DNA from: Trichinella spiralis
Lineage: Eukaryota
DNA length: 53,648 bases
Assembly (NCBI RefSeq): GCF_000181795.1
Contig: NW_003526948.1
Span: 711,935 to 765,582, forward strand
Direction: 5' to 3'
How positions within the stretch are numbered: position 1 is the first letter of the stretch; each line of letters starts with the position of its first letter. The notes below the pieces were generated by a model, which did no database searches, was not told the origin of the DNA, and saw only the letters and a list, made by a program, of their open reading frames with translations. The translations under genes and the position numbers were made by a program. Shown piece after piece: positions 283-48,464 of this stretch.

Positions 283-1794
283 TGATAACCTACAAAAATC
301 ATATTAACACTAAAAATAATGTTCTCACTTATGAACTCAAGCTATTTTGATTTAACATTCAAATATTAAAAAATTTATAAACCTTTAAGTTGCAAACTGA
401 TCGATTAAAAGATACTAGTAAATGTCGCAAAGTTTAAATATGATAGATAACTTCAATTAACAAAGTTTAAAAAACTACACCTAAATCGTAGCAAATTCTT
501 TAGAGTTATGCTATTTACTTCCTAAAAAATTAGGATGAAACATATAAAATGCATAGATGATAAATCTACAATAACACATTTAACATTTTCAATAGCAGTG
601 GTTCATAAATATATACCTTTCAAAAACAATGAAATTTCTGTATGCCGAGTTCTTCAACTGAATATTTAAAACTCAGATCGGATCATGAAAAACTAAATCT
701 TTGCTTACACTTAAAAATGATCGTGTTCAACAAAAATTCAAAAAAAAACTAATTTTTATTTGTTAATATTTCGAGACATAAATACAGTAAGCTAACATGT
801 AATTAAGTATTATTCCATTTGATCTTATTATAATTTTTATTTATAAATTAATTCAGTTTTCAGTTTAATAGTTTTTTCATATTTATGATGTGTCTACAAA
901 CCAATTTCCAATTTTGATATTCAATTTCAAGTATGAGTGTTACCAGCTTAGATTTTAAGAAAAATAGAACATCAGGTTTTATTAGTAAATTTTAAAAAAA
1001 TATCAAGTTAAAAAAGCAGTTAATTATTCATTTCGTTTTATTCATCAGTTATTTAATAATGAAGTTATCAATCAGGCAAGACTGGCAGAACACACTATTA
1101 CAGATAAGCATTTGAATTGTAATCCTAGTAATTGAAATACGGCTTTGTTATTTCTTCATTTCAAATTTTTATATGCTTTTAGAAAAATCTGAATTTTTAA
1201 TCGTCTTTTCGTAACTGCGTTTCTGGATTTGTAGTAGAGATTAAAAACCGATTTTCAGTGTAAAACAGCTTTCTCTTCGAATGGATAATAGCTCTTTTGA
1301 AAATTTGCTAGAACAACTACTCGGCACCTTATAATCACTGAATTTTTCTAACAGAAAAATACAGAAAGAATAAGGATGTGCATGCATAAGATTAGGACTA
1401 CAGTATACTTTTAATACCAAGTTACATCAGAACTGACAGGAATATTAACCGTTTCTTTAAGTAGTATGCATATCTGCAAACGTAAAAAACTAAATAAAAA
1501 TTTCTTACAACAATATACAAAAAATTTTATTTTATATCATTTCTTTTCTTCAAATGAATCGTTTCAGGTCCTCCAAATTGGGATGTTTAAAACTATCATA
1601 AAATTTATATTGCGTATAAGTGACCATAAAAATATTTTACTTTTTATTTTTATCGGAATTTTTTAATCATATAAACCATTTATCATTTTATATAATAAAA
1701 ATATGTTGACACCAAATCTATTCAAGTAAGCTTTCAATATTCCATTTTATTTCATATTCAAAAAATTTCCATTTTTATTCTTCAATAGTCTTCT

Positions 1795-3577
1795 TTACTT
1801 TTTCTTAGGCTTCAATGCAACTTGCTCCACACTGGTGAAAAAATCATCATCAGCCAAATTCAGCATTAAACTCCCAGTATTCAAATAGGCACGGTTAGCT
1901 GACTGAGCAAGCTAAAATAAAGCATTATTTTCCATTATTTATATCTACACTTTAGAAAAAAAATTCTCACCGTTCGTGCAATGTTCTGTGCAGCTCTTAT
2001 TTTTCTCAATTTCAAATATCCGGGATCCTTCCCTAGCGCTTCACCAATCTATCATACAAACAGAATATTTACATATATTTAAATTACACACACTTAAATT
2101 TATAAATCTTTCAATGTATGGGATCTCAGATTACTAAAGATGAAAATCATTTCTCAATTTCTGTTAACTTTGTTTTCGTTGAATGTCAGCGCAGGAATGG
2201 TTACAGATAAGACTGTGTGATAAAAAGCGCTTCATTATGTCAGTCTGATTTTACAGCGAACAAGAACTCTTCTCACTCCGCCAAGATTTCAGACTTTGTA
2301 AAATATTATTATACTTTCAACGCTCATAGAAAATTTTTCGTCACAGACCACAACAATCACGTAAATATTGCATGAGAAAAAAACATACAAAGATTTTAGA
2401 ATACAAAGAACTGCATACCAATTTCGCTGCTTGAGCTTCTCCTTGAGCTTGCACAATTTTCTGCTGCCTTTCTTGCTTGGAACGTTCAACGACAAATGCC
2501 GCTCTTTGCGCTTCTTGCGCAGCTACTTGTTTCGCTTCAACAGCTTGAGTATATTCACGTCCAAAAGACAGTTCTGTAATTGAAACATCGTCGAGAATGA
2601 TGTGAAAATCTCTCGCTCTTTCCACAAGTTGCTTTCGAATTAACAAAGATACTTGCTGACGCTGAGTGATCAACTGTGAAGCGTTGAACTTCGCCACAAC
2701 ACTCTTTAAAACCTAAATTATGAAATAATAGTACACAGTTATTAAGCATTGTATGCAAAATTAATATATCGCATTAGCAAAATAAACAAAATCATATTAA
2801 CTAATCAATAAATATCATTTATATTAATTTTATTTAAATAAAAAAATTACTTCATTGATGATAGATGGTAGAACTCTTTCATCCCAATCGACACCCAGTG
2901 TTCGGTATATTTTCGGTAAATATGCCGCGTCTGGTCGTGATAAAACGCGCAAAGAAATATTCACCATTTGCAAATCTAAATAACCATTTATGCCGAAAAT
3001 TGAATTATTAATAAAACTATTTTCACGCCTACGGCTCACAGCCCACGCATTCACACTACACCTAATATAATCACATTTTTATTAAGGAAATGAAAATATT
3101 CGTTCATTAAAAATAATGTTATTATATTTTAACACGATCGATAACACAATCAACTTATTGCTAAAGTATATTCCAGCTTATAATATAATCATAATAAAGT
3201 TATATTTATATGGTATAACATCTAGCATACCCTTGCTGCCAGTTGGACTGGTGACTTTATGTGGTCTGGCGCGTACATCGTAGATAATTGGATAGTGCAA
3301 CCAAGGAATTCGAAAATGAAGTCCTTCAGTAAAAATTTCTTTCCCAACACCGGAAATTCGACTGAAAACAATTGCTCTGTGTCCACCATCAACTTAAAGT
3401 TATACGATATATGATTAAGCTTCATGTTAAATTTATGATTTTAATTTTACCTGTGTAAAAACTTTGAGACAATGCGTAAGTTAAGCCAGTGGCACCTGCC
3501 AAAAGTCCAATACCGGCTGACAAACCTTTTGGGTTTCGTAACATTCGGCTCATTAAGTCCATTACTTTATCTGCCAT
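1795..3577 (-). CDS. PHB2: Prohibitin-2 (SPFH domain), 6 exons
   Basis: Exons 3577-3451, 3392-3231, 2975-2851, 2712-2419, 2048-1971 and 1911-1795, all with GT-AG introns. Motifs [57 protein letters not shown] and [34 protein letters not shown]. Confidence 0.95.
2121..2349 (-). ncRNA. Intronic composite box C/D-H/ACA small Cajal-body RNA (U85/U89-like), predicted guide for U5 snRNA Cm45 and Psi46
   Basis: On the minus strand: C box GTGACGA (2344-2338); hairpin GTCTGA/TCAGAC with pocket AATCTT + GTAAAA and TGAG in the apical part (2294-2243); H box ACATAA (2240-2235); second hairpin AGCGC/GCGCT then ACA (2186-2184); guide ATCTTTAGTAA (2141-2131); D box CTGA (2129-2126); short terminal stem GGTC/GATC. 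Confidence 0.88.
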
Positions 3578-4246
3578 TTATTAAAAACTGGACGTGCTCT
3601 TGAAACAAAAGCCAAAATCCTTAAGAACAGCGTGTTAACTATCGCCAATAATGATTCTTAGGTATGAACATACAGTAATCATAAATACATTATTAAGTTA
3701 GTCATAACTAGGAATAAGTACCGCGTGAAACCACTTTTCATTTATTTTTTATTTTAAATGTAGTATTTAATGTGTTATAATGTGATTCAAATATCGAAAT
3801 TGTAATTATTTTGATATTACATATTCGTCAAAACTGTCTTTTTGACTTTTTTGATGCCAAAAATTTTCTTAATATGTATAAATAAGCTATTTAAGTTCGT
3901 TTTTGGGCAATTACAACAATAATACCCAAAAGTCGTTCACAAATTTTCAAAATCTTGGCAGCATGGAAATCATGCAGTTGCTATCACTAATCGTGATACA
4001 CCAGAAAAAATACAGAATTTTCGTTTTTGTTTAATTTTTATTTATTTTTAAATAGAAATACATTTCTTCTCCAAATCTAAATATACTGTACAAATTAAAG
4101 ATATGCATGTACAGTTAAATGATGACGCACATCTTGTTCATTGGTTTTTGATTTTTAATTCTTATTAGGACCGCTTTAGCAGCATTTTGTAATTGCTATT
4201 TTATTCAGTTTTGCATCTGTCTGTACGGTTGAAAAGTGGAGGCATA

Positions 4247-5639
4247 ATGGCAGAGAATGATTTTTCTCGATGGTATAGAAGCGTTCCAGAAATTACACGA
4301 TATTGGTTTTCTGGAACCGTTGTTTTGCCAATGTTGGTTCGTTTTCGACTTCTTGACTCATATTGGCTTTTCCTGGACTATGATCTAGTTTTTCATAAGC
4401 TTCAGGTTCACTTAGAATTATACTTATTTTCGCCTATTTCATCATTTTATTTTTCAGATATGGCGCATAGTTACTGCGCTATTTTATTATCCTATTACAC
4501 CTCAAACTGGATTCCAGTATTTGATTTTGCTCTACTTTTTATACAGCTACTCTCTGAAATTAGAAACGGGTAATTTTTTAATTTTTGCACTATTGTGATT
4601 CACGATTTACTAAATATGTTTTGGTTTAGATGCATTTCGAGATAAGAAAGCCGATTATCTGTTCATGTTGATATTTAATTGGTTATCTGCTACTGTAAGC
4701 AATTTATATCGTATATTTTAGTGGTTTTACCGTTTCGCTAATTGTTTTTTACTTTAACTTTTGATAAAATTACATAAGACAGAGCAGGAATGTTTGCTAT
4801 TTTATGTCATCTTATTGTGTTTAGGTTATTGCTTTCTTTTGCAACATACCTATTCTTCCGGAACCTATGATACTGAGCATTTTGTATGTTTGGTGTCAGT
4901 TGAATAAAGATATGATCGTTCCGTTCTGGTTTGGTACCTATTTCAAAGCACTTTATCTTCCTTGGGCTCTGATGTTTTTCAACATGATACTTCGTGGAGG
5001 GTAATTATCATCTATAATATATATATATATATACATTTCTTTTTTCTTCTTTCAGAGGATTCAACGAGCTTGTTGGAATCCTGGTTGGACACCTTTACTT
5101 CTTTCTGGCTATCAAATATCCTCAAGAATTTGGAGGAAGATCGTTTTTGCAGACGCCGAAATTTTTGTAAGCAAAATTCAGTGACTAATAGTTGAATCAT
5201 AAGTTGATTTTGATATGATTCTTTGATAAGATTACTGTAGCGTTTGATAAAGGAATGCAAGTAACTATTTTCATAACACCTACTGTTACTACTGTAACAT
5301 TTTAGTGTTAATATTTTAATGTTTAATTTAAAAGATTGTTTTCAAGTTAATATGTTCATTATTTAAGTTAGTCATTTATGGGTGTTATTTTAACATGCAA
5401 GCGGATGAATAATAAATCGCTGAATAAATATTAGATGGAGTTGAATAATTTTTTTAAGAACTGAAGTTTGACGTTCAGTTGAATTGCGTGCTGATATGAA
5501 TTGGTAACTTTTCAGGGAGCGCTTATTTCCATCTCGTCAAGGTTTTCGTGCATTCGGTCAAAATGGCGGAGTGAGAGGCAGAAATGACAGTTCAGATCAA
5601 CATCGTTGGGGCCGCGGTTATGCTGTTGGCGGAAATTGA
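4247..5639 (+). CDS. DERL1: Derlin-1 (ERAD rhomboid pseudoprotease), about 6 exons
   Basis: MAENDFSRWYRSVPEITRYWF..., QIWRIVTA, FLYSYSLKLETDAF...ADYLFMLIFNW, LYVWCQLNKDMIVPFWFGTYFKALYLPWAL, LVGILVGHLYFFLAIKYPQEFGG. The C-terminus HRWGRGYAVGGN* resembles the SHP box. Confidence 0.92.
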
Positions 5640-5781: not shown

Positions 5782-7657
5782 TTACCAGTAAATGCTCCAA
5801 TAAACAGCATTAAACGAACAGAAGAGTAACGGGAATAAATACCTGGAAATAATATCAATTTGATCTGCCCGAGAGCTGATTCTGAGAAAGAAATTCCAAG
5901 ATGACAAATTCAATTTTACCCGTCTTCGTTTCTGCCGTTCATTATTGGTCATGTCGACTAATTCCAAGACAGATGTATCTTTTTCTTCTTTAAAATCCAT
6001 CGATGGTGATAATCCGATTTCTTCACTCTGTTTCGATAATGATGATCGTTTTCTTCTTCTCGGATAACTTTCCTAAATGAGCATATTTTAATTTTTTTAA
6101 TGTAAATATACAGTTGCTTTTTTTGCCTACGTAAAGTTCATCTTGATTTGCATAGATTGGTCTGTCATACTGATCTGTTGAAAAATTGGCCGATTCTATT
6201 TGGCTTTCGTTTGCTTTGATTTCTGCAATTTTGAATTGTTCGCGTAAGCCAGCGTAATTAACAAACGCATATTCTATTAATGAACCGAATATGAACATTA
6301 TGCATGCACCAATCCAAACGTCCAAAGCTTTGGCATAAGACACTGGTGGTAATTTAGCATTTATTGCTGAAACGAAATATCATCCAGAAATGTAATTTTT
6401 TTTAGAAAAAAAAGAAATAAAACCAATTTACCATAACTATGCGTAATCATTGTCAACAATGTTATGATGGAAAGCGGCACTCTGCCTGCAGCTGCTCTCC
6501 AATCAATCCAATAAGATACCCACGAAACTGCTACAAGCAAGCTAGAAGGTATGTACAATTGAAGAAGAAAAAATGAAAACAATCTTCTCAAATGAAGCTC
6601 CACTCGAAGGCAAGTGTATGTCCCTTAAAAATATAGGCATTTTTTAAATGAATGAAACAACTTAGTTGCGTCCAATTATTTACCAGTGGCAGTTTTGCTT
6701 GTGCATGACGCATTCTTGAATGATGTAATAATAAAATTTGATAATTCACTTTCCGCCCACGGGGAAATTTTTAAAGGATTCAAACTCCAAGCATAATCCA
6801 CATCAGCGTCCGTATAAGCATCTGAAATAAAACACCAGTGATAAAAATGAAACCACGTGCTAAACATGGGATAATAATGGTTGATTAAAAATTGTTTCAA
6901 CTGCATGCACACTCCAGTTGGAACTTACAGCTCGAGAAATCCATGTTACACGTTTGTTCATCCATGGGATATTTTTCAAGTTGCATAGCGCAGGCGAACG
7001 TCATCGTTAGCCTAGAAACAAACAACTTGTTGTTAAGTGGTCTTTTGAACACAAATTTTTCACATAAAAATAAAACGACAACCTCCTGTTGTATACCACC
7101 GTGCCGTCAGCGCGTATTTTTACATAAAAATTTGGCTGATCCAAAGTATGATAAGTGCCGCGCTTTTCATTTTGAAAAAATGTATCCGGAATCCAGACAT
7201 TTTGATCTTTGGATAAATAGATGAATTCATCTTTCGAAAAATAGGGATCTTTGAATGTCAATCGTTTATCTATCCATTCTTGCTGAAATTTGAACTGCAC
7301 TTTATATTCCTAAACAGTATGGACGTTGGAAAAAGTCATAAAAAAAGGTGATAAATATTTTGTCGTTTATTTAAAAAATTTTAATTTTTCCCATTTTTTT
7401 TCATACCATGTTGAATTCGTCTATTGCACTTAATCCAGTGATGTGAATACTTGTCATAACTAATACCGGCTCGTGGGGACTTGCTGGTCGTAAATTTGAT
7501 GAATAATTTAATAGAAGATTTTTCACCAGTCGTTGTTCCCTCCACGAACGATAGTTTGTCTTATTGTCAGATCGTCTGAAATTACAATAATTGTTGAATT
7601 AAATCAAATTAAATTTCATTACACGTGATGTAGCAATTTTTGCAGAAAAAATCTCAT
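5782..7657 (-). CDS. Cys-loop ligand-gated anion channel subunit, GluCl-like; 5' end and signal peptide uncertain
   Basis: Spliced exons give [11 protein letters not shown], the Cys-loop [17 protein letters not shown]1 [23 protein letters not shown]2 [38 protein letters not shown] and TM4 [21 protein letters not shown]. Confident from 5782 to 7575. The ATG at 7657 is tentative. Confidence 0.85.
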
Positions 7658-17143: not shown

Positions 17144-19644
17144 ATGCATAGCCCTACTGTGCTCTTCTCTGTACAACTTGACAGGCAAAATGCTACAATT
17201 CGAGATTTAGCGCAAAATTTCAACTTCAATCCTATGCTACCTATAATCAGTCCAAATTTGTATCCGTACAATTGGTTGTACGGCAGCACACTTCTTCCAA
17301 CCTTAAATGCACAGCCTCTTAACCCTTACAATTTTGGGTTATCATTTGGTAAGAAATGCTTTCTTAATTTTAATAAATGAATGCATTATGTAAACGTGAA
17401 CAATTGTAGGATTAAACAGTCATTTACTACAGTGGGCCAACTTCAACGCAGGATTAGAATTTTTCCTAAGTCAAAACTCATTGCCTGCAAAAAGTTATCC
17501 TGAAAACAGTTTTTGCGTGGAATCAATACTTGCTTCAAAATCTTTTGATAGATCAGGTGAAACGTCAAAGAAGGAAGAAGCACAGCCGGTAGTAGAAGTC
17601 CAAGTCGAACAGAGTTTAGACGCACCATTAGTAGAGTCTAAAAACACGGCAACAGCTGCTGATCGGTTTCAGGATGGTGTTACAGTTGGTTACACATATG
17701 ATGCGTTATTCATTTCTGACGGAAGATCTAAAAGAAGATTGAATAACGCCGGTGATTCTGAACGGCATCGTTACACATGCACACAGTGTGGAAAGACTTA
17801 TGCAACTAGCAGCAATTTGAGTCGTCACAGACAAACACATCGTTCACTTGATAGTTCATATGCAAAAAAGTGTCCCGAGTGTGACAAAGTTTACGTCAGC
17901 ATGCCGGCTCTTAGTATGCATCTCCTCACTCACAAGCTAGAACATGCTTGCAAGGTAACATTAAAAAATTTTCAAAGTATACCACTCTGTGATGAACATT
18001 GAAGAGCACAGCATTTTAATGTATACTGTAACCAACCATAGGTTTAGTTAGCATGAGACGCTTTTCAACCAGTAGCAGATGTTACTTACAGATAAAAATT
18101 AGCAGCTGTAGAGGTGAAAGCGTTGGCACTATATTTTCTTAATTTCAGTAAGATTAAGTCACCGGTGTGCAAAGTTGTGTATAGGCGATTGACTTTTAAT
18201 TTGTTACGTAATCAGACATTTGCATTTGAGCACTTATGAGAGAGATATGATGATAGTCTGTAAATGTCACTACGTTAGAAATCATTTCGACTTCCAAAAA
18301 TAACAGATCAATAAAAAATTAGGACGTCAATTTCTAAGTTTCATCAAATTTTGGTTGAAAAGAAATTTTCTTATTTCAAAACAATCCTCAAATGCATTAA
18401 AATTTTTGGTATTATGTTTTACTTAGTTTTCATCATTAATTTTTTTGAATTTAAAAACATATCTAAAGATTTAATTAACATTCATTAATTATGAAATGAA
18501 TCTTCAAATTTTGAGTAGCAGATGTTTTTGAAAGAAAATGAATGAACAATCAGTTCCATTTATAAAATATACAAAATCATATCATAATTTTATATAACTT
18601 GCCATATTACAATTTTTAACAGTAAAATTAGTCTTTGTGCATGGTAAATGCATTTCAAAATTTATCTTCCATCTTGGATTACATAAAGCACTACCAGGAT
18701 GCTGCTAGAGTGGGATTTTTTGGCAAAAGTGTTAAAGCGCTTTTTCAAATCATTGCAATAATCATTTGATAAAAATAGTATTGCATTTCATTTCTCACTA
18801 TATAATTCACTTCACCATGTTAACTTGATTCTGTAAAGTAATAAGCAGCATTTGTGCTACTGCAGTTTACTGTAAAAATTTAAGCAGTGTATTTTTTTAA
18901 TGCACTGAATTACATGCTACAAGTGCAATTTATGAAATGAGCTAAACAAGAGTAATAGGAAGTCTGTGATTGCAAAATTACAATGACTGTGCATGACGAC
19001 TTAATGATATAAAACAAAATAAAATTAACTGCTTATTCCAGCTGACATCTAAAGTCAAAATATTCATATAAAAGTAAAGTTTATTAATGAAGTAGTTCAT
19101 CTTTCTGTAGTGCTTTGTTTGATGAGTATTCTAATGTTATGGTACTTTTCATAACGCCCATAACTTTTTGACAGAAAGAAGAGGTCATTTTTCACGATTT
19201 TTCTCTATAGACTAAACTGCTCATTGACCTTTAAGCATTTAAATGTTCTATTTATGGTAAACATAAAATTACTATGAATTTCCTCATTTCAATAGTTCAT
19301 ATGTTGCGTCTTTGTACTTTTTATGATGTGATTCAAATAGTATTTCGTATGCACGTAAATATAAATGGTATTTTTAGATATGCGGTAAAGCGTTCAGTCG
19401 TCCATGGCTTCTCCAAGGCCACATGAGGTCACACACTGGTCATAAACCGTTTGGATGTGCTCACTGTGGCAAAGCATTTGCAGATCGTAGCAACTTAAGA
19501 GCCCACATGCAAACGCACATCAGCCAGAAGCGCTACAAATGCAAGCAATGTGACAAAGCTTTTGCATTGAAAAGTTACCTTGCTAAACATCGAGAACTGA
19601 GCTGTGCAAAGCCAAATGTTAGTGATGTTGACTTTTCTAACTAA
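17144..19644 (+). CDS. scrt: Scratch-family (Snail superfamily, ces-1-like) C2H2 zinc-finger transcription factor, 3 exons
   Basis: Exons 17144-~17348, 17410-17954 and 19378-19644 are phase-compatible. Scratch domain [17 protein letters not shown]. Five fingers include [52 protein letters not shown] and [18 protein letters not shown]. Confidence 0.93.
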
Positions 19645-39506: not shown

Positions 39507-40596
39507 TTAAAGTTTCTTCTTTCGGGATTTAGCTTGCGTTCTTGGTGGACATGGGCAATATTGGGCGTCATTGCCTGGATCACCAACAGGACCTGGAGGT
39601 CCATCACGACCAGGTCGTCCAGGATCACCTCTCTTGCCCGCTGGTCCCATTGGGCCCGTTTCACCAGTTTTGCCAGGAAGACCTGCCATTCCAGGGAATC
39701 CGTTTGGTCCGTTTGGTCCAGGCTCACCTCGCGGCCCTTTGTCACCAGGTGGTCCTTTACGACCTAATGTTCCATCTTTTCCAGGAGCACCCATTGGGCC
39801 CACTTTACCAGGAATACCTGGTTTTCCTGGAGGTCCAGGTTGTCCTTTGGGTCCTGGCTTTCCATCTGGTCCTGGTTTGCCGTGCAGACCTGGTGGTCCT
39901 TTGGGACCCTAAAAAATTAATGTCAACGGATATTTAAGCAATGATATTAAATCAAATCAAATCACGCACAGCAGCTCCGGGCTTGCCAGGCGCACCAATG
40001 GGTCCAGGTGGTCCGGGTGGGCAGTATCGGCATTTTCCATCAGGACTTACTGGAACTGGTGGAAAATTTCCGGGAAGACCAGGTATACCGGGCTCGCCAT
40101 CAAATCCAGTTTCACTGAAATCCGATATAATATCGCTCGAATTTTAGCAAATAGCACTTAAAATATATACCCATCGACGCCAGGCTCTCCTGGCAAACCA
40201 GGCGGACCTGGTGGGCATGGATTATCCTCTTCGCAGTCTAAATGTACAGTTGCAGAATAAAAGCTGAACACTTATATTTCATCGAAGCAAAGTTCTCTTA
40301 CTGCACAGGCCGCTGACTTGTCGAACAACACGATGCTTGGCATTTAACGACACAGCTCTGCCTCTGATTTCTAATTCCTTTAGAATATCTTCTGCAATTA
40401 TCTATAAAAAAAGAAATTTAAAACAAACATAAGAGTGCAATTTAAAAAGATATACATTGAATTCGTCCATATCGATTCGAATATCCATACGAACGCTGTC
40501 TAAACGTTGCATCAACATTGGTACAAATATCAGACAGCAAAATAGTGCGCCAATGCTGAAGAAAACGGCCGAAGCAGCCGCTACAGTCGACGACAT
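39507..40596 (-). CDS. Nematode cuticle collagen, multi-exon
   Basis: N-terminal cuticle domain [32 protein letters not shown], interrupted Gly-X-Y blocks, and C-terminal [10 protein letters not shown]. Confidence 0.95.
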
Positions 40597-42223
40597 TGCT
40601 TTGCACGAGCAGAAAGGGGAAAACAATCCACCAAGAAGCAGCAACTACTGAAAAGCAGGCAAAATGACGCTTTATATTTAACTGTTTAATACGCCCGTGG
40701 CAAGACAGAACAAGATATTTCTAAATCTTCATGGCCGTCCAAGTTGTTACAGTCTGTTTCTTTTGTAAAAATGGGTGCGGACGGTTGATTGACTGGTAAT
40801 CGACCAACGTGGAGATTTGTCTCCATGTCGCCCTGATTCGTTGATGGCCTTTTTGGACCGGTTATTATAAAGTTTTATAAAGGCTATTTTATCTGGAAAT
40901 TAATCGACTTTATTTGAAAGGTAAGTGAAATTTTGAAAAAAACAAGCCACTTGGACGATAATTTGATGAGAGAATGTTATGCTTGATGAATGGGAAAAAT
41001 GTCCACACGCATACTGTAGCAGCGTTTGAAAATAGGTCTTCTTTTTTTACTACTCGTTTGTAGCGTTTTAAATTTCTTTCAAAAGGAATTTCTGAGGAAT
41101 GTTGCTTTTTGTTAAAATTGTTGTTCACTACTTTTAGGTGTACTGTTGCATTTTTGAATTTATGTTTCAAAACTTATTTTTACTACTACATGCATCAGTG
41201 ATCATCAGCGGCATCAATCACTAGACATTTTTAAATCAAGAATCAAAATTATATTTGCCTAAATTAAAATTCTGCGATAATAATAATGATCAATAACAGA
41301 TGAAATAATCTTATTTATTAAATTATGATAAAGTTCAGTTATGGCGTAAAATGTAAATTTTGTTATCTGTGCATTTTCAGCAGAAACTAGTGATTCTATT
41401 AAAAGCTTATTTTATTCAATTGTCTGCATCAGCATTCAATTATATTTTTTATGGAAACATAGCGGAAATTAGAAGTGAACGTTTTGTCATTGTTATCAGA
41501 AAGCATACTTTATACTTTCTAGCAACTGTTGAAAACACAAAGCAGTTGTTCCAAGCAATCTACTATTTTGCATTCCAGTTTAGTAAGTTTTTATGAAGCA
41601 TTTGATGCATGTTGTTTTTTGAAGAAAATTTCGTCTTGCAATTAATCAATTTTGCATGAAAAATGTTAAATAATATTTATATATTCATTTCAAATAAATT
41701 TTTATGATGAATTGATTTTTTTTATCTCAACGGAAGTTTCAAGGCTAGTCAGCTAGCTAGCCAGTGCTTTTATTTTTCACTTTGATGTTCTGTTTTTCTC
41801 ATACTTGTGTTATTTTTTGGTTTTGTTATTATGGTTAATAATTGTGAAAGCACTGCAAACTTATTAATAATATGAATGGCTGAAAATATGGAATTAACAA
41901 TAACAAGAACCGAATTAACATTTTGAACAAACAAAATATTATTCACACCAATAGTAGCAGTTGCCGTAGCAAATTTTGCGATCGGGTTCTAGCTCAACCG
42001 TTTTTCATCAGTTTGATGAATTTCACTTTGTATTTATTCATCAAATTCTTCATAGCTATAATTCAAATGTCCGTTTGCGTTAGATGCAAGAGACATGTAT
42101 TTGCTTAAATATTCCTGTATTTTAAATTTATCCAAGAAGATTCACCATTTTATTTTTTTGAATAAAACAATGCTGCCAGAATGTTATAATAAAACTTTTT
42201 TTATTCTTCCCAGTAAAATTTCA

Positions 42224-43285
42224 TCATAACAGACAGCCACCGGCAGTTATTTTCGACACGCTTTTTCCAATGGAACAAAATGAGATGGGATGTTTAAATT
42301 TCGAAGACATGTAAGCCATGGTAAAAGTTTCTGAATTGTGGGCGTACAAAAATTCAGTTTTCGCGGGATAATCGTCGGATTCTACCAAACGTAATGCACA
42401 AATACAACCAATTAGCATACGATCTTTCGGTACATCAGCGAGCAATTTTGATTGAAGATATTTTTTCTCAATAACGTCAACTACAATTTCTACCGGACAT
42501 TTGTCTTTTTCTGGTTTCACCAAAGCTCGAGCAATTTTTTTCGCAATTTGCGTCTTTATTAAATATTCACCGCATCCACTACAACTAACCGTACAACAAC
42601 TCGACTGACTGAATGCTTCAGCCCAACAGCCACAACCGTACAACGCAGCCTGGCCAACTCGACCAGGTACTTTGAGCAATAAGCCTCCACTTGAACAAGA
42701 TGCAGCAGGTAGTAACCTGGAATCTAAACATATCGACCCTACGGTGTCAACGCGCTGATGGTGATAGTGTTTTGTACCACTGGCTACCAAATTTGAAAGA
42801 TTCCTGCGAAATGTTTGAACACTGTTTTCAACGATCATATCTTTAAAGTCCACAGTTTCCAAGCCAGCGGATTTGGCGTACTGCAATGCACCATCGCTTA
42901 CCAAAAGCATTGGTTGAATTAACTGTTCTCCATCTTGTTCATGATTCTGTGCATCTAATAAACTTTTAGCAAGTGAAATAGGATTTTTGACTCCTTGAAG
43001 TGCACCAACGCCTGCAAAATTCATCGTTTTGCCATCCATCAAACCTGCGTCACATTCTACCGTTTCATTCAATGTCAAATTAGAACCTAAACCAGCATTG
43101 GTCAATGGACAATTTTCTATAATTATGGTCGCCTGTGTGCAAGCATGCAATGATGATTTTCCTTTTTTCATCTCATTCAAAGCAACTTTACAGGCTTTTT
43201 GTAAACAGTGTAATATTTCATCACGCTGCTTTCTTGGGTAATATCCCGCTCCAGCGTGCACAGCTACGAACATATCGTTCATCAT
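42224..43285 (-). CDS. TASP1: Threonine aspartase 1 (Taspase1, type 2 asparaginase family), single exon, 353 aa
   Basis: FVAVHAGAG, TNAGLGSNL, VECDAGLMDG, autocleavage site D|TVG, SSGGLLLKVPGRVGQAALYGCGCWA, SGCGEYLIKT. Confidence 0.92.
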   Translation of the reverse strand: MMNDMFVAVHAGAGYYPRKQRDEILHCLQKACKVALNEMKKGKSSLHACTQATIIIENCPLTNAGLGSNLTLNETVECDAGLMDGKTMNFAGVGALQGVKNPISLAKSLLDAQNHEQDGEQLIQPMLLVSDGALQYAKSAGLETVDFKDMIVENSVQTFRRNLSNLVASGTKHYHHQRVDTVGSICLDSRLLPAASCSSGGLLLKVPGRVGQAALYGCGCWAEAFSQSSCCTVSCSGCGEYLIKTQIAKKIARALVKPEKDKCPVEIVVDVIEKKYLQSKLLADVPKDRMLIGCICALRLVESDDYPAKTEFLYAHNSETFTMAYMSSKFKHPISFCSIGKSVSKITAGGCLL

Positions 43286-44586
43286 CCTTTTATAACTCTT
43301 AAAAAAGCTTTAATTAATTTATAAATTGAAAAAATATGTTAAACTTAAATTAATCACTGTATTAAAACATAACATGAAATTACTCTTTATACAGCCTATT
43401 TTGGCGAAAACTGCTTTACTAGAAAAGTGAAAATTGAAAACGAAGTTATATTTAACTTATTAAATTTGGATGTAACATACTGTTAAGGACTCTAATTCAC
43501 TTCAACATCTAACGAACTGCCTAATAAACTATTCTATTCATTATAAAAATTATAGCATTCAATTTATATGCAAGTATATACTGTATATGCTTGCATACCA
43601 AGACGTCATAGCGTAATATAACGTAATGAAAATAAAATTATTTAATACATAAATAGACAATTGCGTTATCGAAAAAACATTATAAGCAATAACACTGTTT
43701 AATGCAAATTTGAGCAACATCTTTAGAGTACTACCGTAATATACCAACAACTTGAAATAAAGTTCGAATTAAAAATTTACAATGCTATCTTTTATAATAA
43801 CAGATACTCTCTGAAAATCATGCATCCTTTTATAGAAAAAATAATTGCATTCTAAAATCTCTAAATAATTCAATAATTCTAAAAAAAATAAAATTCTCAT
43901 TATGTAAATAAATAAATAAATAAACAAATATATATGTATATATATATTTTTTTATTAATATATGCGTATGCATATATTAAATGACAAGTAGAAGATAACA
44001 ATGAAAGTAAAAAATGTGATTTTCCTAAATCAAATGATGCTAGATATACTGTAACTTTTTTAAAATAAAAGTATAAAGAAGAAAAATAGATAAAAGAAAA
44101 TATAAAATATATTTATGACCGTAATTTTAATATTATTTTAAAATGCCATAAAAATATTCTACAGAATTTTACACGCAAGCACAAATTAGTCCAAACTTTT
44201 TTTGAATTCAGCTTTACATGCGAAATTTTATAATATTTTTATTAATAATATTAATTTTTTGCATTAATTATTTTATTATTGGTACCTATAAAAAATAAAA
44301 GTTACGCATTAAAGTGCATTCATTAATTTACTATTTACAATCAAAATAAACATTTTTTAAATGAAGAATTTTTTAAAAAAGAAAATTTAATTAAAATAAT
44401 ATTTTATTAAATAACTGTACTAAATTTAAACATGTAAATTTGATAGTGTGCTTGCTTGTCATTGACCTTGGTAAATGATTGTCAAGATGGTGACGTCACT
44501 CCAAATGTATAGTATCCCTTGGTCTTAAGTTATCATTGTTCGCATTTGCGTTGTCCGTTGTCTGTACGTATCGACTGTCATTCCTC

Positions 44587-48464
<3,878 letters not shown>

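What the first reader, a model, noticed from the sequence alone, without database searches (positions are those of the whole stretch)
2121..2349. Hidden U85/U89-type composite C/D-H/ACA scaRNA in prohibitin-2 intron 4, with two guides aimed at adjacent U5 snRNA nucleotides
Seen: the 370-nt intron (2049-2418) is longer than any other PHB2 intron. On the host strand it reads C box GTGACGA, then a hairpin GTCTGA-AATCTT-(GGCGGA..TGAG..TTCGCT)-GTAAAA-TCAGAC, H box ACATAA, a second hairpin plus ACA, then ATCTTTAGTAA-T-CTGA, closed by a short terminal stem. Established: U5 loop I reads ...GCCUUUUACUAAAGAUU..., and human U85 (SCARNA10) has an H/ACA domain nested inside a C/D RNA that guides Cm45 and Psi46. 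Here the pocket pairs with UUUUAC and AAGAUU, leaving UA unpaired (Psi46). The fifth base upstream of the D box is the G opposite C45. TGAG matches the CAB box. Inference: this is a compact (~230 nt) functional scaRNA. I do not know of it being described in nematodes but cannot verify that.
Basis: partly seen in the sequence, partly recalled or inferred. Interest (0 to 1): 0.9.

Follow-up and report, generated by a model that had tools for sequence, protein, structure and literature searches.

The report
Compact U85 guide RNA in Trichinella
An intron of the prohibitin-2 gene of a Trichinella worm gives rise to an abundant RNA of about 225 bases of the known U85 type, which likely marks two neighbouring bases of the splicing RNA U5 for chemical modification; it is a real but ordinary family member, notable for being short and for occurring in a nematode.

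Summary
Real and expressed; a new member of a known kind. The window is Trichinella. PHB2 intron 4 (2049-2418, minus strand) holds a composite C/D-H/ACA RNA at about 2122-2349. Rfam snoU85 matches end to end (36.1 bits, E 5.9e-6 window-wide), below the gathering score of 41. Both guides pair perfectly with the published T. spiralis U5 loop I, selecting C45 and U46. In one stranded RNA run depth reaches 61 inside the RNA, 0 in the flanking intron, and at most 18 in exons. One correction: the UGAG named as CAB box is predicted paired; AGAG at the hairpin tip is the better candidate. It has U85 guides but lies in the host gene of human U89. At 229 nt it is shorter than five invertebrate-like homologues (258-273 nt) and lacks a 5' element they share. 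Modification and Cajal-body localisation are untested. This scan noted U85 in PHB2 three times before, in other animals. I found no nematode composite in print, but the key survey (Marz 2011) was unavailable.

The parts
1788..3588 (-). Prohibitin-2 (PHB2) host gene, six exons
   Evidence: Spliced 946-nt contig in X20 and five splice joints in X22; exon 4 is 99-100% identical to Trichinella and 86-93% to other animal PHB2 entries; best PDB match Prohibitin-2, 8rrh_B
2049..2418 (-). Intron 4, 370 nt, GT-AG, phase 0, between codons matching PHB2 residues 237 and 238
   Evidence: Joint 2048/2419; exon ends align to 8rrh_B 140-237 and 238-263; donor fails the U12 rule
2122..2349 (-). Composite box C/D-H/ACA guide RNA, U85 type, about 225-229 nt
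   Evidence: Rfam snoU85 2121-2349, model positions 1-329; read depth confined to about 2125-2349
2346..2349 (-). 5' strand of the terminal stem (pairs with 2122-2125)
   Evidence: Constrained fold; organism C turns a G-U pair into A-U and could add a fifth pair
2338..2344 (-). C box GUGACGA (one deviation from RUGAUGA)
   Evidence: Sequence; the 5 homologues have RUGAUGA
2317..2322 (-). Predicted helix with 2177-2182 that closes the H/ACA domain just after the ACA box
   Evidence: Constrained fold only
2242..2295 (-). H/ACA hairpin 1 with the pseudouridylation pocket
   Evidence: Main stem pair probabilities 0.91-1.0; z -2.9; lower stem invariant and upper stem kept in 6 of 6 aligned sequences
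2283..2288 (-). 5' pocket strand AAUCUU, pairs with U5 A48-U53
   Evidence: Sequence; U5 rows in the supplement of PMC2396436
2249..2254 (-). 3' pocket strand GUAAAA, pairs with U5 U40-C45; 14 nt from the pocket top to the H box
   Evidence: Sequence; U5 rows
2267..2270 (-). Candidate CAB box AGAG in the terminal loop of hairpin 1
   Evidence: GAG unpaired at p 1.0; 5 of 5 homologues have NNAG in the same loop; function untested
2272..2275 (-).
   Evidence: G, A, G paired at p 0.97-0.99
2235..2240 (-). H box ACAUAA (ANANNA)
   Evidence: Sequence; ANANNA at the same place in 5 of 5 homologues
2188..2231 (-). H/ACA hairpin 2, with a 10+10-nt internal loop and no CAB-like motif in its terminal loop; no target assigned
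   Evidence: Fold; sequence not conserved with homologues
2184..2186 (-). ACA box
   Evidence: Sequence, 1 nt after hairpin 2
2131..2141 (-). 2'-O-methylation guide AUCUUUAGUAA, 11 bp with U5 U42-U52; the fifth base before box D (G2134) faces C45
   Evidence: Sequence; U5 rows; at most one difference in each of the 5 homologues
2126..2129 (-). D box CUGA
   Evidence: Sequence; 5 molecules end at 2125, one base beyond it

Best explanation
PHB2 intron 4 yields a discrete, accumulating RNA of about 225 bases with a box H/ACA domain nested inside a box C/D frame, and it likely guides 2'-O-methylation of C45 and pseudouridylation of U46 in U5 snRNA, as human and Xenopus U85 do. Shown: the boxes, the two perfect complementarities to Trichinella U5, and accumulation on the host strand. 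Inferred from the known families: the RNA is trimmed from the spliced intron; the C/D ends form a kink-turn that loads 15.5K, NOP56/58 and fibrillarin; the inner hairpins load dyskerin, NOP10, NHP2 and GAR1. The two guides cover overlapping U5 bases, so they must act one after the other; from the Xenopus data, U46 probably goes first. Targeting to Cajal bodies through AGAG is possible but the weakest step.
For: Rfam snoU85 full-length match. The T. spiralis U5 loop I equals the human one with the same numbering, giving 11 bp for the C/D guide and 6+6 bp for the pocket, with canonical +5 and 14-nt spacing. Run X22: depth 12-61 at 2125-2334, 1.7 at 2335-2349, 0 at 2050-2109 and 2350-2409, all on the strand of the spliced mRNA; exon bins peak at 12-18 and bins wholly inside introns 2 and 3 are 0. 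A separate 254-nt contig 2122-2375 lies beside the spliced mRNA contig in organism E. Five distinct homologues keep the same guides and boxes. Human and Xenopus U85 make Cm45 and Psi46 in a yeast test (PMC5733568 passages).
Against: The score of 36.1 is under Rfam's gathering score of 41. The C box deviates at one base. Expression rests on one raw-read run, 71 reads in the fine lay, about 18% of the run read; the 5' end is not defined. This species' own U5 was not seen. Conservation against organism C is not significant (4 of 228 vs 20 of 652 intronic positions, p 0.21; with indels p 0.077). With all five organism-C differences applied, the whole-RNA constrained fold rearranged hairpin 2, although the isolated H/ACA domain kept it. 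One of two Xenopus U85 copies with intact-looking guides made only Cm45, so complementarity does not prove both activities.
Confidence: 0.85

Rival explanations
1. The RNA is real and homologous to U85 but only one half works, most likely with the C/D half methylating C45 and the pocket inactive, or the reverse because of the deviant C box and the lost 5' element.
For: One Xenopus U85 copy makes only Cm45. The C box deviates and a GGC-containing element found after box C in 5 of 5 homologues is missing. C. elegans is reported to keep only an H/ACA-type partial homologue (Huang 2007 as cited in PMC3388055).
Against: Both guides are perfect and unchanged in the relatives examined; the terminal stem is intact and read depth runs out to both ends.
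Confidence: 0.1
2. The intron is processed into a shorter H/ACA-only RNA (about 2181-2295) that makes up most of the reads, and the C/D frame is a remnant.
For: Depth peaks at 2185-2304 and falls towards both ends; three reads have loose ends at 2162.
Against: A fall towards the ends is expected for fragments of a short RNA; depth stays 12-24 at 2125-2169 and drops to 0.4 just past box D, with 5 molecules ending at 2125; the loose letters at 2162 look like library adapter.
Confidence: 0.04
3. The match is chance and the reads come from a retained intron, a stable lariat or DNA.
For: X10 has a contig across the whole intron and X19 one from 2123 to 2411, so precursor or DNA exists in some libraries.
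Against: In X22 the intron flanks have zero depth while the RNA has up to 61, on one strand only; E 5.9e-6; two independent perfect U5 complementarities.
Confidence: 0.01

Closest known systems
U85 / SCARNA10 (Rfam snoU85, RF01296; human, Xenopus, Drosophila)
   Same: H/ACA domain nested in a C/D RNA; guides for U5 Cm45 and Psi46; pocket strands, upper-stem start and guide-plus-D-box nearly match the Rfam consensus; intron-encoded.
   Different: 229 nt against 329 model positions, 298-315 nt in Xenopus and 258-273 nt in five metagenome homologues. C box GUGACGA. No GGC element after box C. At most one CAB candidate, where human U85 has two (PMC4041459 passage). Score below the gathering threshold. 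Human U85 lies about 0.46 Mb from U89, in another host gene (NCAPD2, recalled).
U89 / SCARNA12 (human, 270 nt, PHB2 intron 6)
   Same: Same host gene, PHB2 (PMC12995542 and PMC10618143 passages); same Psi46 target; probably the same intron position (human boundary recalled, not tested).
   Different: U89 is listed with U5-U46 as its only target; this RNA also has the full C45 guide.
C. elegans H/ACA snoRNA partially homologous to U85/U89 (Huang et al. 2007, seen only as cited in PMC3388055)
   Same: Nematode relative of the U85/U89 H/ACA part.
   Different: Described as a canonical H/ACA RNA, not a composite; FISH failed to detect it in early embryos. Its sequence was not compared here.

Membership tests
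U85-type composite guide RNA (SCARNA10) | Terminal C and D boxes closed by a short stem (kink-turn geometry) | tested here: met
   GUGACGA / CUGA, 3-nt bulge, 4-bp stem 2349-2346 with 2122-2125; one C-box deviation
U85-type composite guide RNA (SCARNA10) | Hairpin-H box-hairpin-ACA domain nested between boxes C and D | tested here: met
U85-type composite guide RNA (SCARNA10) | Antisense element before box D that places U5 C45 opposite the fifth base | tested here: met
   11 bp with the published T. spiralis U5, paired by hand; congener, not this species
U85-type composite guide RNA (SCARNA10) | 5' hairpin pocket that leaves U5 U46-A47 unpaired 14-15 nt from box H | tested here: met
   6+6 bp, 14 nt
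U85-type composite guide RNA (SCARNA10) | Intron-encoded on the host strand and accumulating as a discrete RNA | tested here: met
   One raw-read run
U85-type composite guide RNA (SCARNA10) | Actually installs Cm45 and Psi46 | not testable with these tools
   Needs modification mapping or a yeast reporter test
scaRNA class | CAB box (ugAG, last two bases crucial) in hairpin terminal loops | tested here: inconclusive
   AGAG at the tip of hairpin 1; none in the hairpin 2 loop; UGAG paired. Definition from PMC2172171 passages
scaRNA class | Cajal-body localisation and WDR79 binding | not testable with these tools
   No data; PMC3388055 (2012) says neither Cajal bodies nor coilin had been identified in C. 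elegans; Trichinella WDR79 was not searched
Rfam RF01296 automatic annotation | Bit score at or above the gathering score of 41 | tested here: not met
   36.1 bits; it would be missed by standard Rfam annotation. This is a curation cut-off, not a biological feature
U89 / SCARNA12 | Hosted in PHB2 | tested here: met
   human host
U89 / SCARNA12 | Same intron position as human PHB2 intron 6 | tested here: inconclusive
   Intron here falls at residues 237/238; that human intron 6 falls there is recalled, from no call
U89 / SCARNA12 | Guides Psi46 only, without a C45 guide | tested here: not met
   The C45 guide is present and perfect; U89 target list
U12-type (minor) host intron | RTATCCTT donor and a U12 branch site | tested here: not met
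   Donor GTATGCAGT, no branch-like motif in the last 45 nt; rule from PMC2846911 passage

The most novel reading that the evidence does not exclude
Early-branching nematodes keep the ancestral bilaterian arrangement, a dual-function U85 inside PHB2 at the intron where mammals now carry U89, in the most reduced form yet seen (229 nt, no 5' element, one CAB box at most), while the C. elegans line kept only an H/ACA half. Vertebrate U89 would then be the in-place copy that lost its methylation guide, and this RNA a natural minimal model of a composite guide, possibly in an animal without typical Cajal bodies.
Probability: 0.45. Interest if true: 0.4.

Novelty: new member of a known kind. Interest (0 to 1): 0.27.

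Why it matters
It fills a gap in the range of a well-studied guide RNA: standard Rfam annotation misses it, and the only nematode relative I found mentioned is an H/ACA-only partial homologue in C. elegans. It supports PHB2 as an old host of the U85/U89 family and shows how small the composite can become. It does not reveal a new mechanism.

Tried and rejected
No whole genome is held, so this species' U5, WDR79, coilin and further U85 copies could not be searched. Rfam at gathering level found nothing in the window; ARAGORN found no tRNA. Marz 2011, Jady and Kiss 2001 and Darzacq 2002 were not held. The run search listed no indexed holder on record as RNA; the RNA evidence comes from laying X22, added by species label. 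X21 (organism F) and X18 (organism D) laid nothing, which is no evidence of absence; 7 of the 24 listed runs were laid. The metagenome pattern scan gave 39 loci; 7 loci (5 distinct sequences) carry a C box and the D-box guide; 12 of the 39 were scanned with Rfam and 5 scored as snoU85; the other 32 were dropped as chance matches. No PHB2 exon was found in those 7 loci, of 1.4-6.3 kb, so they neither support nor exclude a PHB2 host. The consensus fold of the six sequences had a covariation term near zero (0.04) and hairpin 2 aligned poorly, so covariation is not claimed as support. A U12-type origin of this intron was considered: the donor fails the rule, and intron 2 begins with the same six bases, so the resemblance is uninformative. 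No target was assigned to the hairpin 2 loop, as no rRNA or full snRNA set of the species was in hand. UGAG as CAB was rejected as first choice.

Full report
Organism and host gene. A single-frame threonine aspartase in the window is 99% identical to a Trichinella patagoniensis entry, 93% to T. pseudospiralis and 45% to Trichuris, so the window is Trichinella. No whole genome is held. The gene around the finding is prohibitin-2: exon 4 is 99-100% identical to Trichinella entries and 86-93% to other animal PHB2 entries, and matches PDB Prohibitin-2 (E 7e-41) better than Prohibitin 1 (E 4e-29). RNA joints give five GT-AG introns of 58, 255, 138, 370 and 59 nt. The finding lies in the fourth and longest, 2049-2418, between codons that align to residues 237 and 238 of chain 8rrh_B.

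Observation. All elements are present on the minus strand at the stated places. Rfam found nothing at gathering level. At E-value level snoU85 covers exactly 2121-2349, model positions 1-329, with 36.1 bits against a gathering score of 41; E is 7.7e-8 for 701 bases and 5.9e-6 for the whole window, where the next of 5 listed hits has E 0.018. Each hairpin beats all but 2 of 300 shuffles and the H/ACA domain all but 6; the full 230 nt does not stand out (z -0.8).

Target pairing. The alignment in supplementary file 3 of PMC2396436 (rows seen) gives T. spiralis, C. elegans and human U5 the same loop I sequence, and T. spiralis the same numbering as human. Paired by hand: guide 2141-2131 forms 11 Watson-Crick pairs with U42-U52, and the fifth base before box D, G2134, faces C45. 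The pocket pairs 2254-2249 with U40-C45 and 2288-2283 with A48-U53, leaving U46-A47 free, 14 nt from box H. Human U5 has Cm45 and Psi46 assigned to U85 (PMC7960923 table passage). This species' own U5 was not seen.

Expression. Of 24 listed runs I laid 7. X22, a stranded raw-read RNA run of organism A (about 18% read), gave 156 reads on the gene. Exon bins peak at 12-18, bins wholly inside introns 2 and 3 are 0, and bins 2138-2326 are 32-61. At finer scale (71 reads) depth is 0 at 2050-2109, 0.4 at 2110-2124, 12-61 at 2125-2334, 1.7 at 2335-2349 and 0 at 2350-2409. All first mates lie on the same strand as those of spliced mRNA reads, so the RNA has the host strand. Five molecules end at 2125, one base past box D. 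The 5' end is not sharply defined. Contig runs add presence only: X20 (organism E) has a separate contig 2122-2375 beside the spliced mRNA; X19 (organism D) one at 2123-2411; X10 (organism B) one across the whole intron; X18 and X21 laid nothing. Expression therefore rests on one run from one study.

Conservation. Organism C (X17, whole gene in one contig) differs at 4 of 228 RNA positions with no indel, against 20 of 652 other intronic positions plus 6 indels; p 0.21 for substitutions and 0.077 with indels, not significant. None of the differences falls in the 48 box and guide positions. One changes G-U to A-U in the terminal stem, one just outside could extend it, one changes C-G to U-G in hairpin 2, one is in a loop, and one breaks a predicted pair in a weak outer helix. 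With all five applied, the constrained whole-RNA fold rearranged hairpin 2, while the isolated H/ACA domain kept it. A pattern scan of metagenome contigs gave 39 loci; 7 loci, 5 distinct sequences, carry box C and the guide, and these 5 score 72-84 bits as snoU85 at 258-273 nt (12 of 39 loci scanned). They share the pocket, box H, guide and box D with the window's RNA; the pattern itself required most of the pocket, so only boxes C, H, D and the methylation guide count as independent. No PHB2 exon lies in those short contigs. The covariation term of the consensus fold is near zero.

Correction on the CAB box. CAB boxes lie in terminal loops and their last two bases, AG, are crucial (PMC2172171 passages); human U85 has two (PMC4041459 passage). 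UGAG at 2275-2272 is predicted paired (p 0.97-0.99 for G, A, G), while AGAG at 2270-2267 is at the tip of hairpin 1, where 5 of 5 homologues have NNAG and the Rfam consensus has AGAG. The loop of hairpin 2 has no AG. Cajal-body targeting is untested; flies without WDR79 modify snRNAs normally (PMC3884663 passage), so it is not needed for the guide function.

Mechanism. Shown: boxes, complementarities, accumulation. Inferred from established C/D and H/ACA biology (recalled): exonucleolytic trimming from the spliced intron, kink-turn assembly with 15.5K, NOP56/58 and fibrillarin, and dyskerin-complex assembly on the inner domain. The two duplexes overlap on U5 and must form in turn. In Xenopus, prior Cm45 can inhibit Psi46, and one of two U85 copies made only Cm45 (PMC5733568 passages); this suggests pseudouridylation first and leaves open that only one half is active here.

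Comparison with known RNAs. By its guides it is U85; by its host it resembles U89, which lies in human PHB2 intron 6 and guides Psi46 (PMC12995542 and PMC10618143 passages). That human intron 6 falls at codons 237/238 is my recollection, from no call. In Xenopus two U85 copies and U89 lie within 4.4 kb, whereas in human they are about 0.46 Mb apart (supplementary table of PMC6984369; host genes not named there), which fits a shared ancestral host. The same paper states that SCARNA10 is conserved in vertebrates and invertebrates. The RNA here is 29-44 nt shorter than the five homologues; 16-22 nt of that is between box C and hairpin 1, where a GGC-containing element present in 5 of 5 is missing. 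The host intron is not U12-type, unlike the host intron in two earlier notes of this scan.

Novelty. Ten full-text searches were run, read as listings. 'U85 + scaRNA + nematode' gave 6 papers and 'Trichinella + snoRNA' 40 (38 listed); no listed title or abstract start describes a Trichinella U85, and I opened only a few of them. The one nematode report found is an H/ACA-only partial homologue in C. elegans (Huang 2007, seen only as cited in PMC3388055). Marz et al. 2011, the metazoan survey of these RNAs, was not held, nor its supplement, and may already list this gene; PMC4914119, PMC2952598 and PMC2831892 were seen as passages only. This scan noted U85 in PHB2 introns in three other animal genomes (unchecked AI notes), none a nematode, and no look-alike by sequence.

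Verdict. A real, expressed, compact U85-type dual guide RNA; new member of a known kind; interest 0.27.

Noticed in passing
window 1788-3588 (-); proteins P0122-P0125: Four public Trichinella protein models of 1024-1109 aa join PHB2 to cleavage stimulation factor 3 domains, whereas run X20 has a 946-nt spliced PHB2 contig on its own; the fusion is probably a gene-prediction error.
   Followed up: partly
window 2419-2712 (-): Human and fly PHB2 have an AT-AC minor intron (PMC2831892 table: human intron 5, fly intron 3). All five introns here are GT-AG and none passes the U12 rule, so that minor intron seems lost or converted in Trichinella, which still has a minor spliceosome.
   Followed up: partly
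L001, L007, L008, L009, L016 (and duplicates L029, L033): U85 genes of 258-273 nt in metagenome contigs, 72-84 bits, host genes not identified. All have a GGC-containing element after box C that could pair with U5 just upstream of the methylation duplex (inference); the window's RNA lacks it.
   Followed up: partly
window 2188-2231 (-): Hairpin 2 has a symmetric 10+10-nt internal loop whose top is 16 nt from the ACA box, the geometry of a second pseudouridylation pocket; no target was searched.
   Followed up: no
window 3577-4250: PHB2 and a Der1-like (derlin) gene lie head to head about 670 bases apart.
   Followed up: no
window 26668-29674 (+): MyoD-like bHLH gene (HLH and Basic domains) with two long poly-glutamine runs.
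   Followed up: no
window 42227-43285 (-): Threonine aspartase encoded by one uninterrupted 353-codon frame, unusual among the intron-rich genes of this window.
   Followed up: no
window 5782-7309 (-), 17400-19644 (+), 39507-40644 (-), 44529-48464 (+): Ordinary genes: a ligand-gated ion channel and a C2H2 zinc-finger factor; a cuticle collagen and CDC-48/p97 (recognised by eye from translations, names recalled).
   Followed up: no
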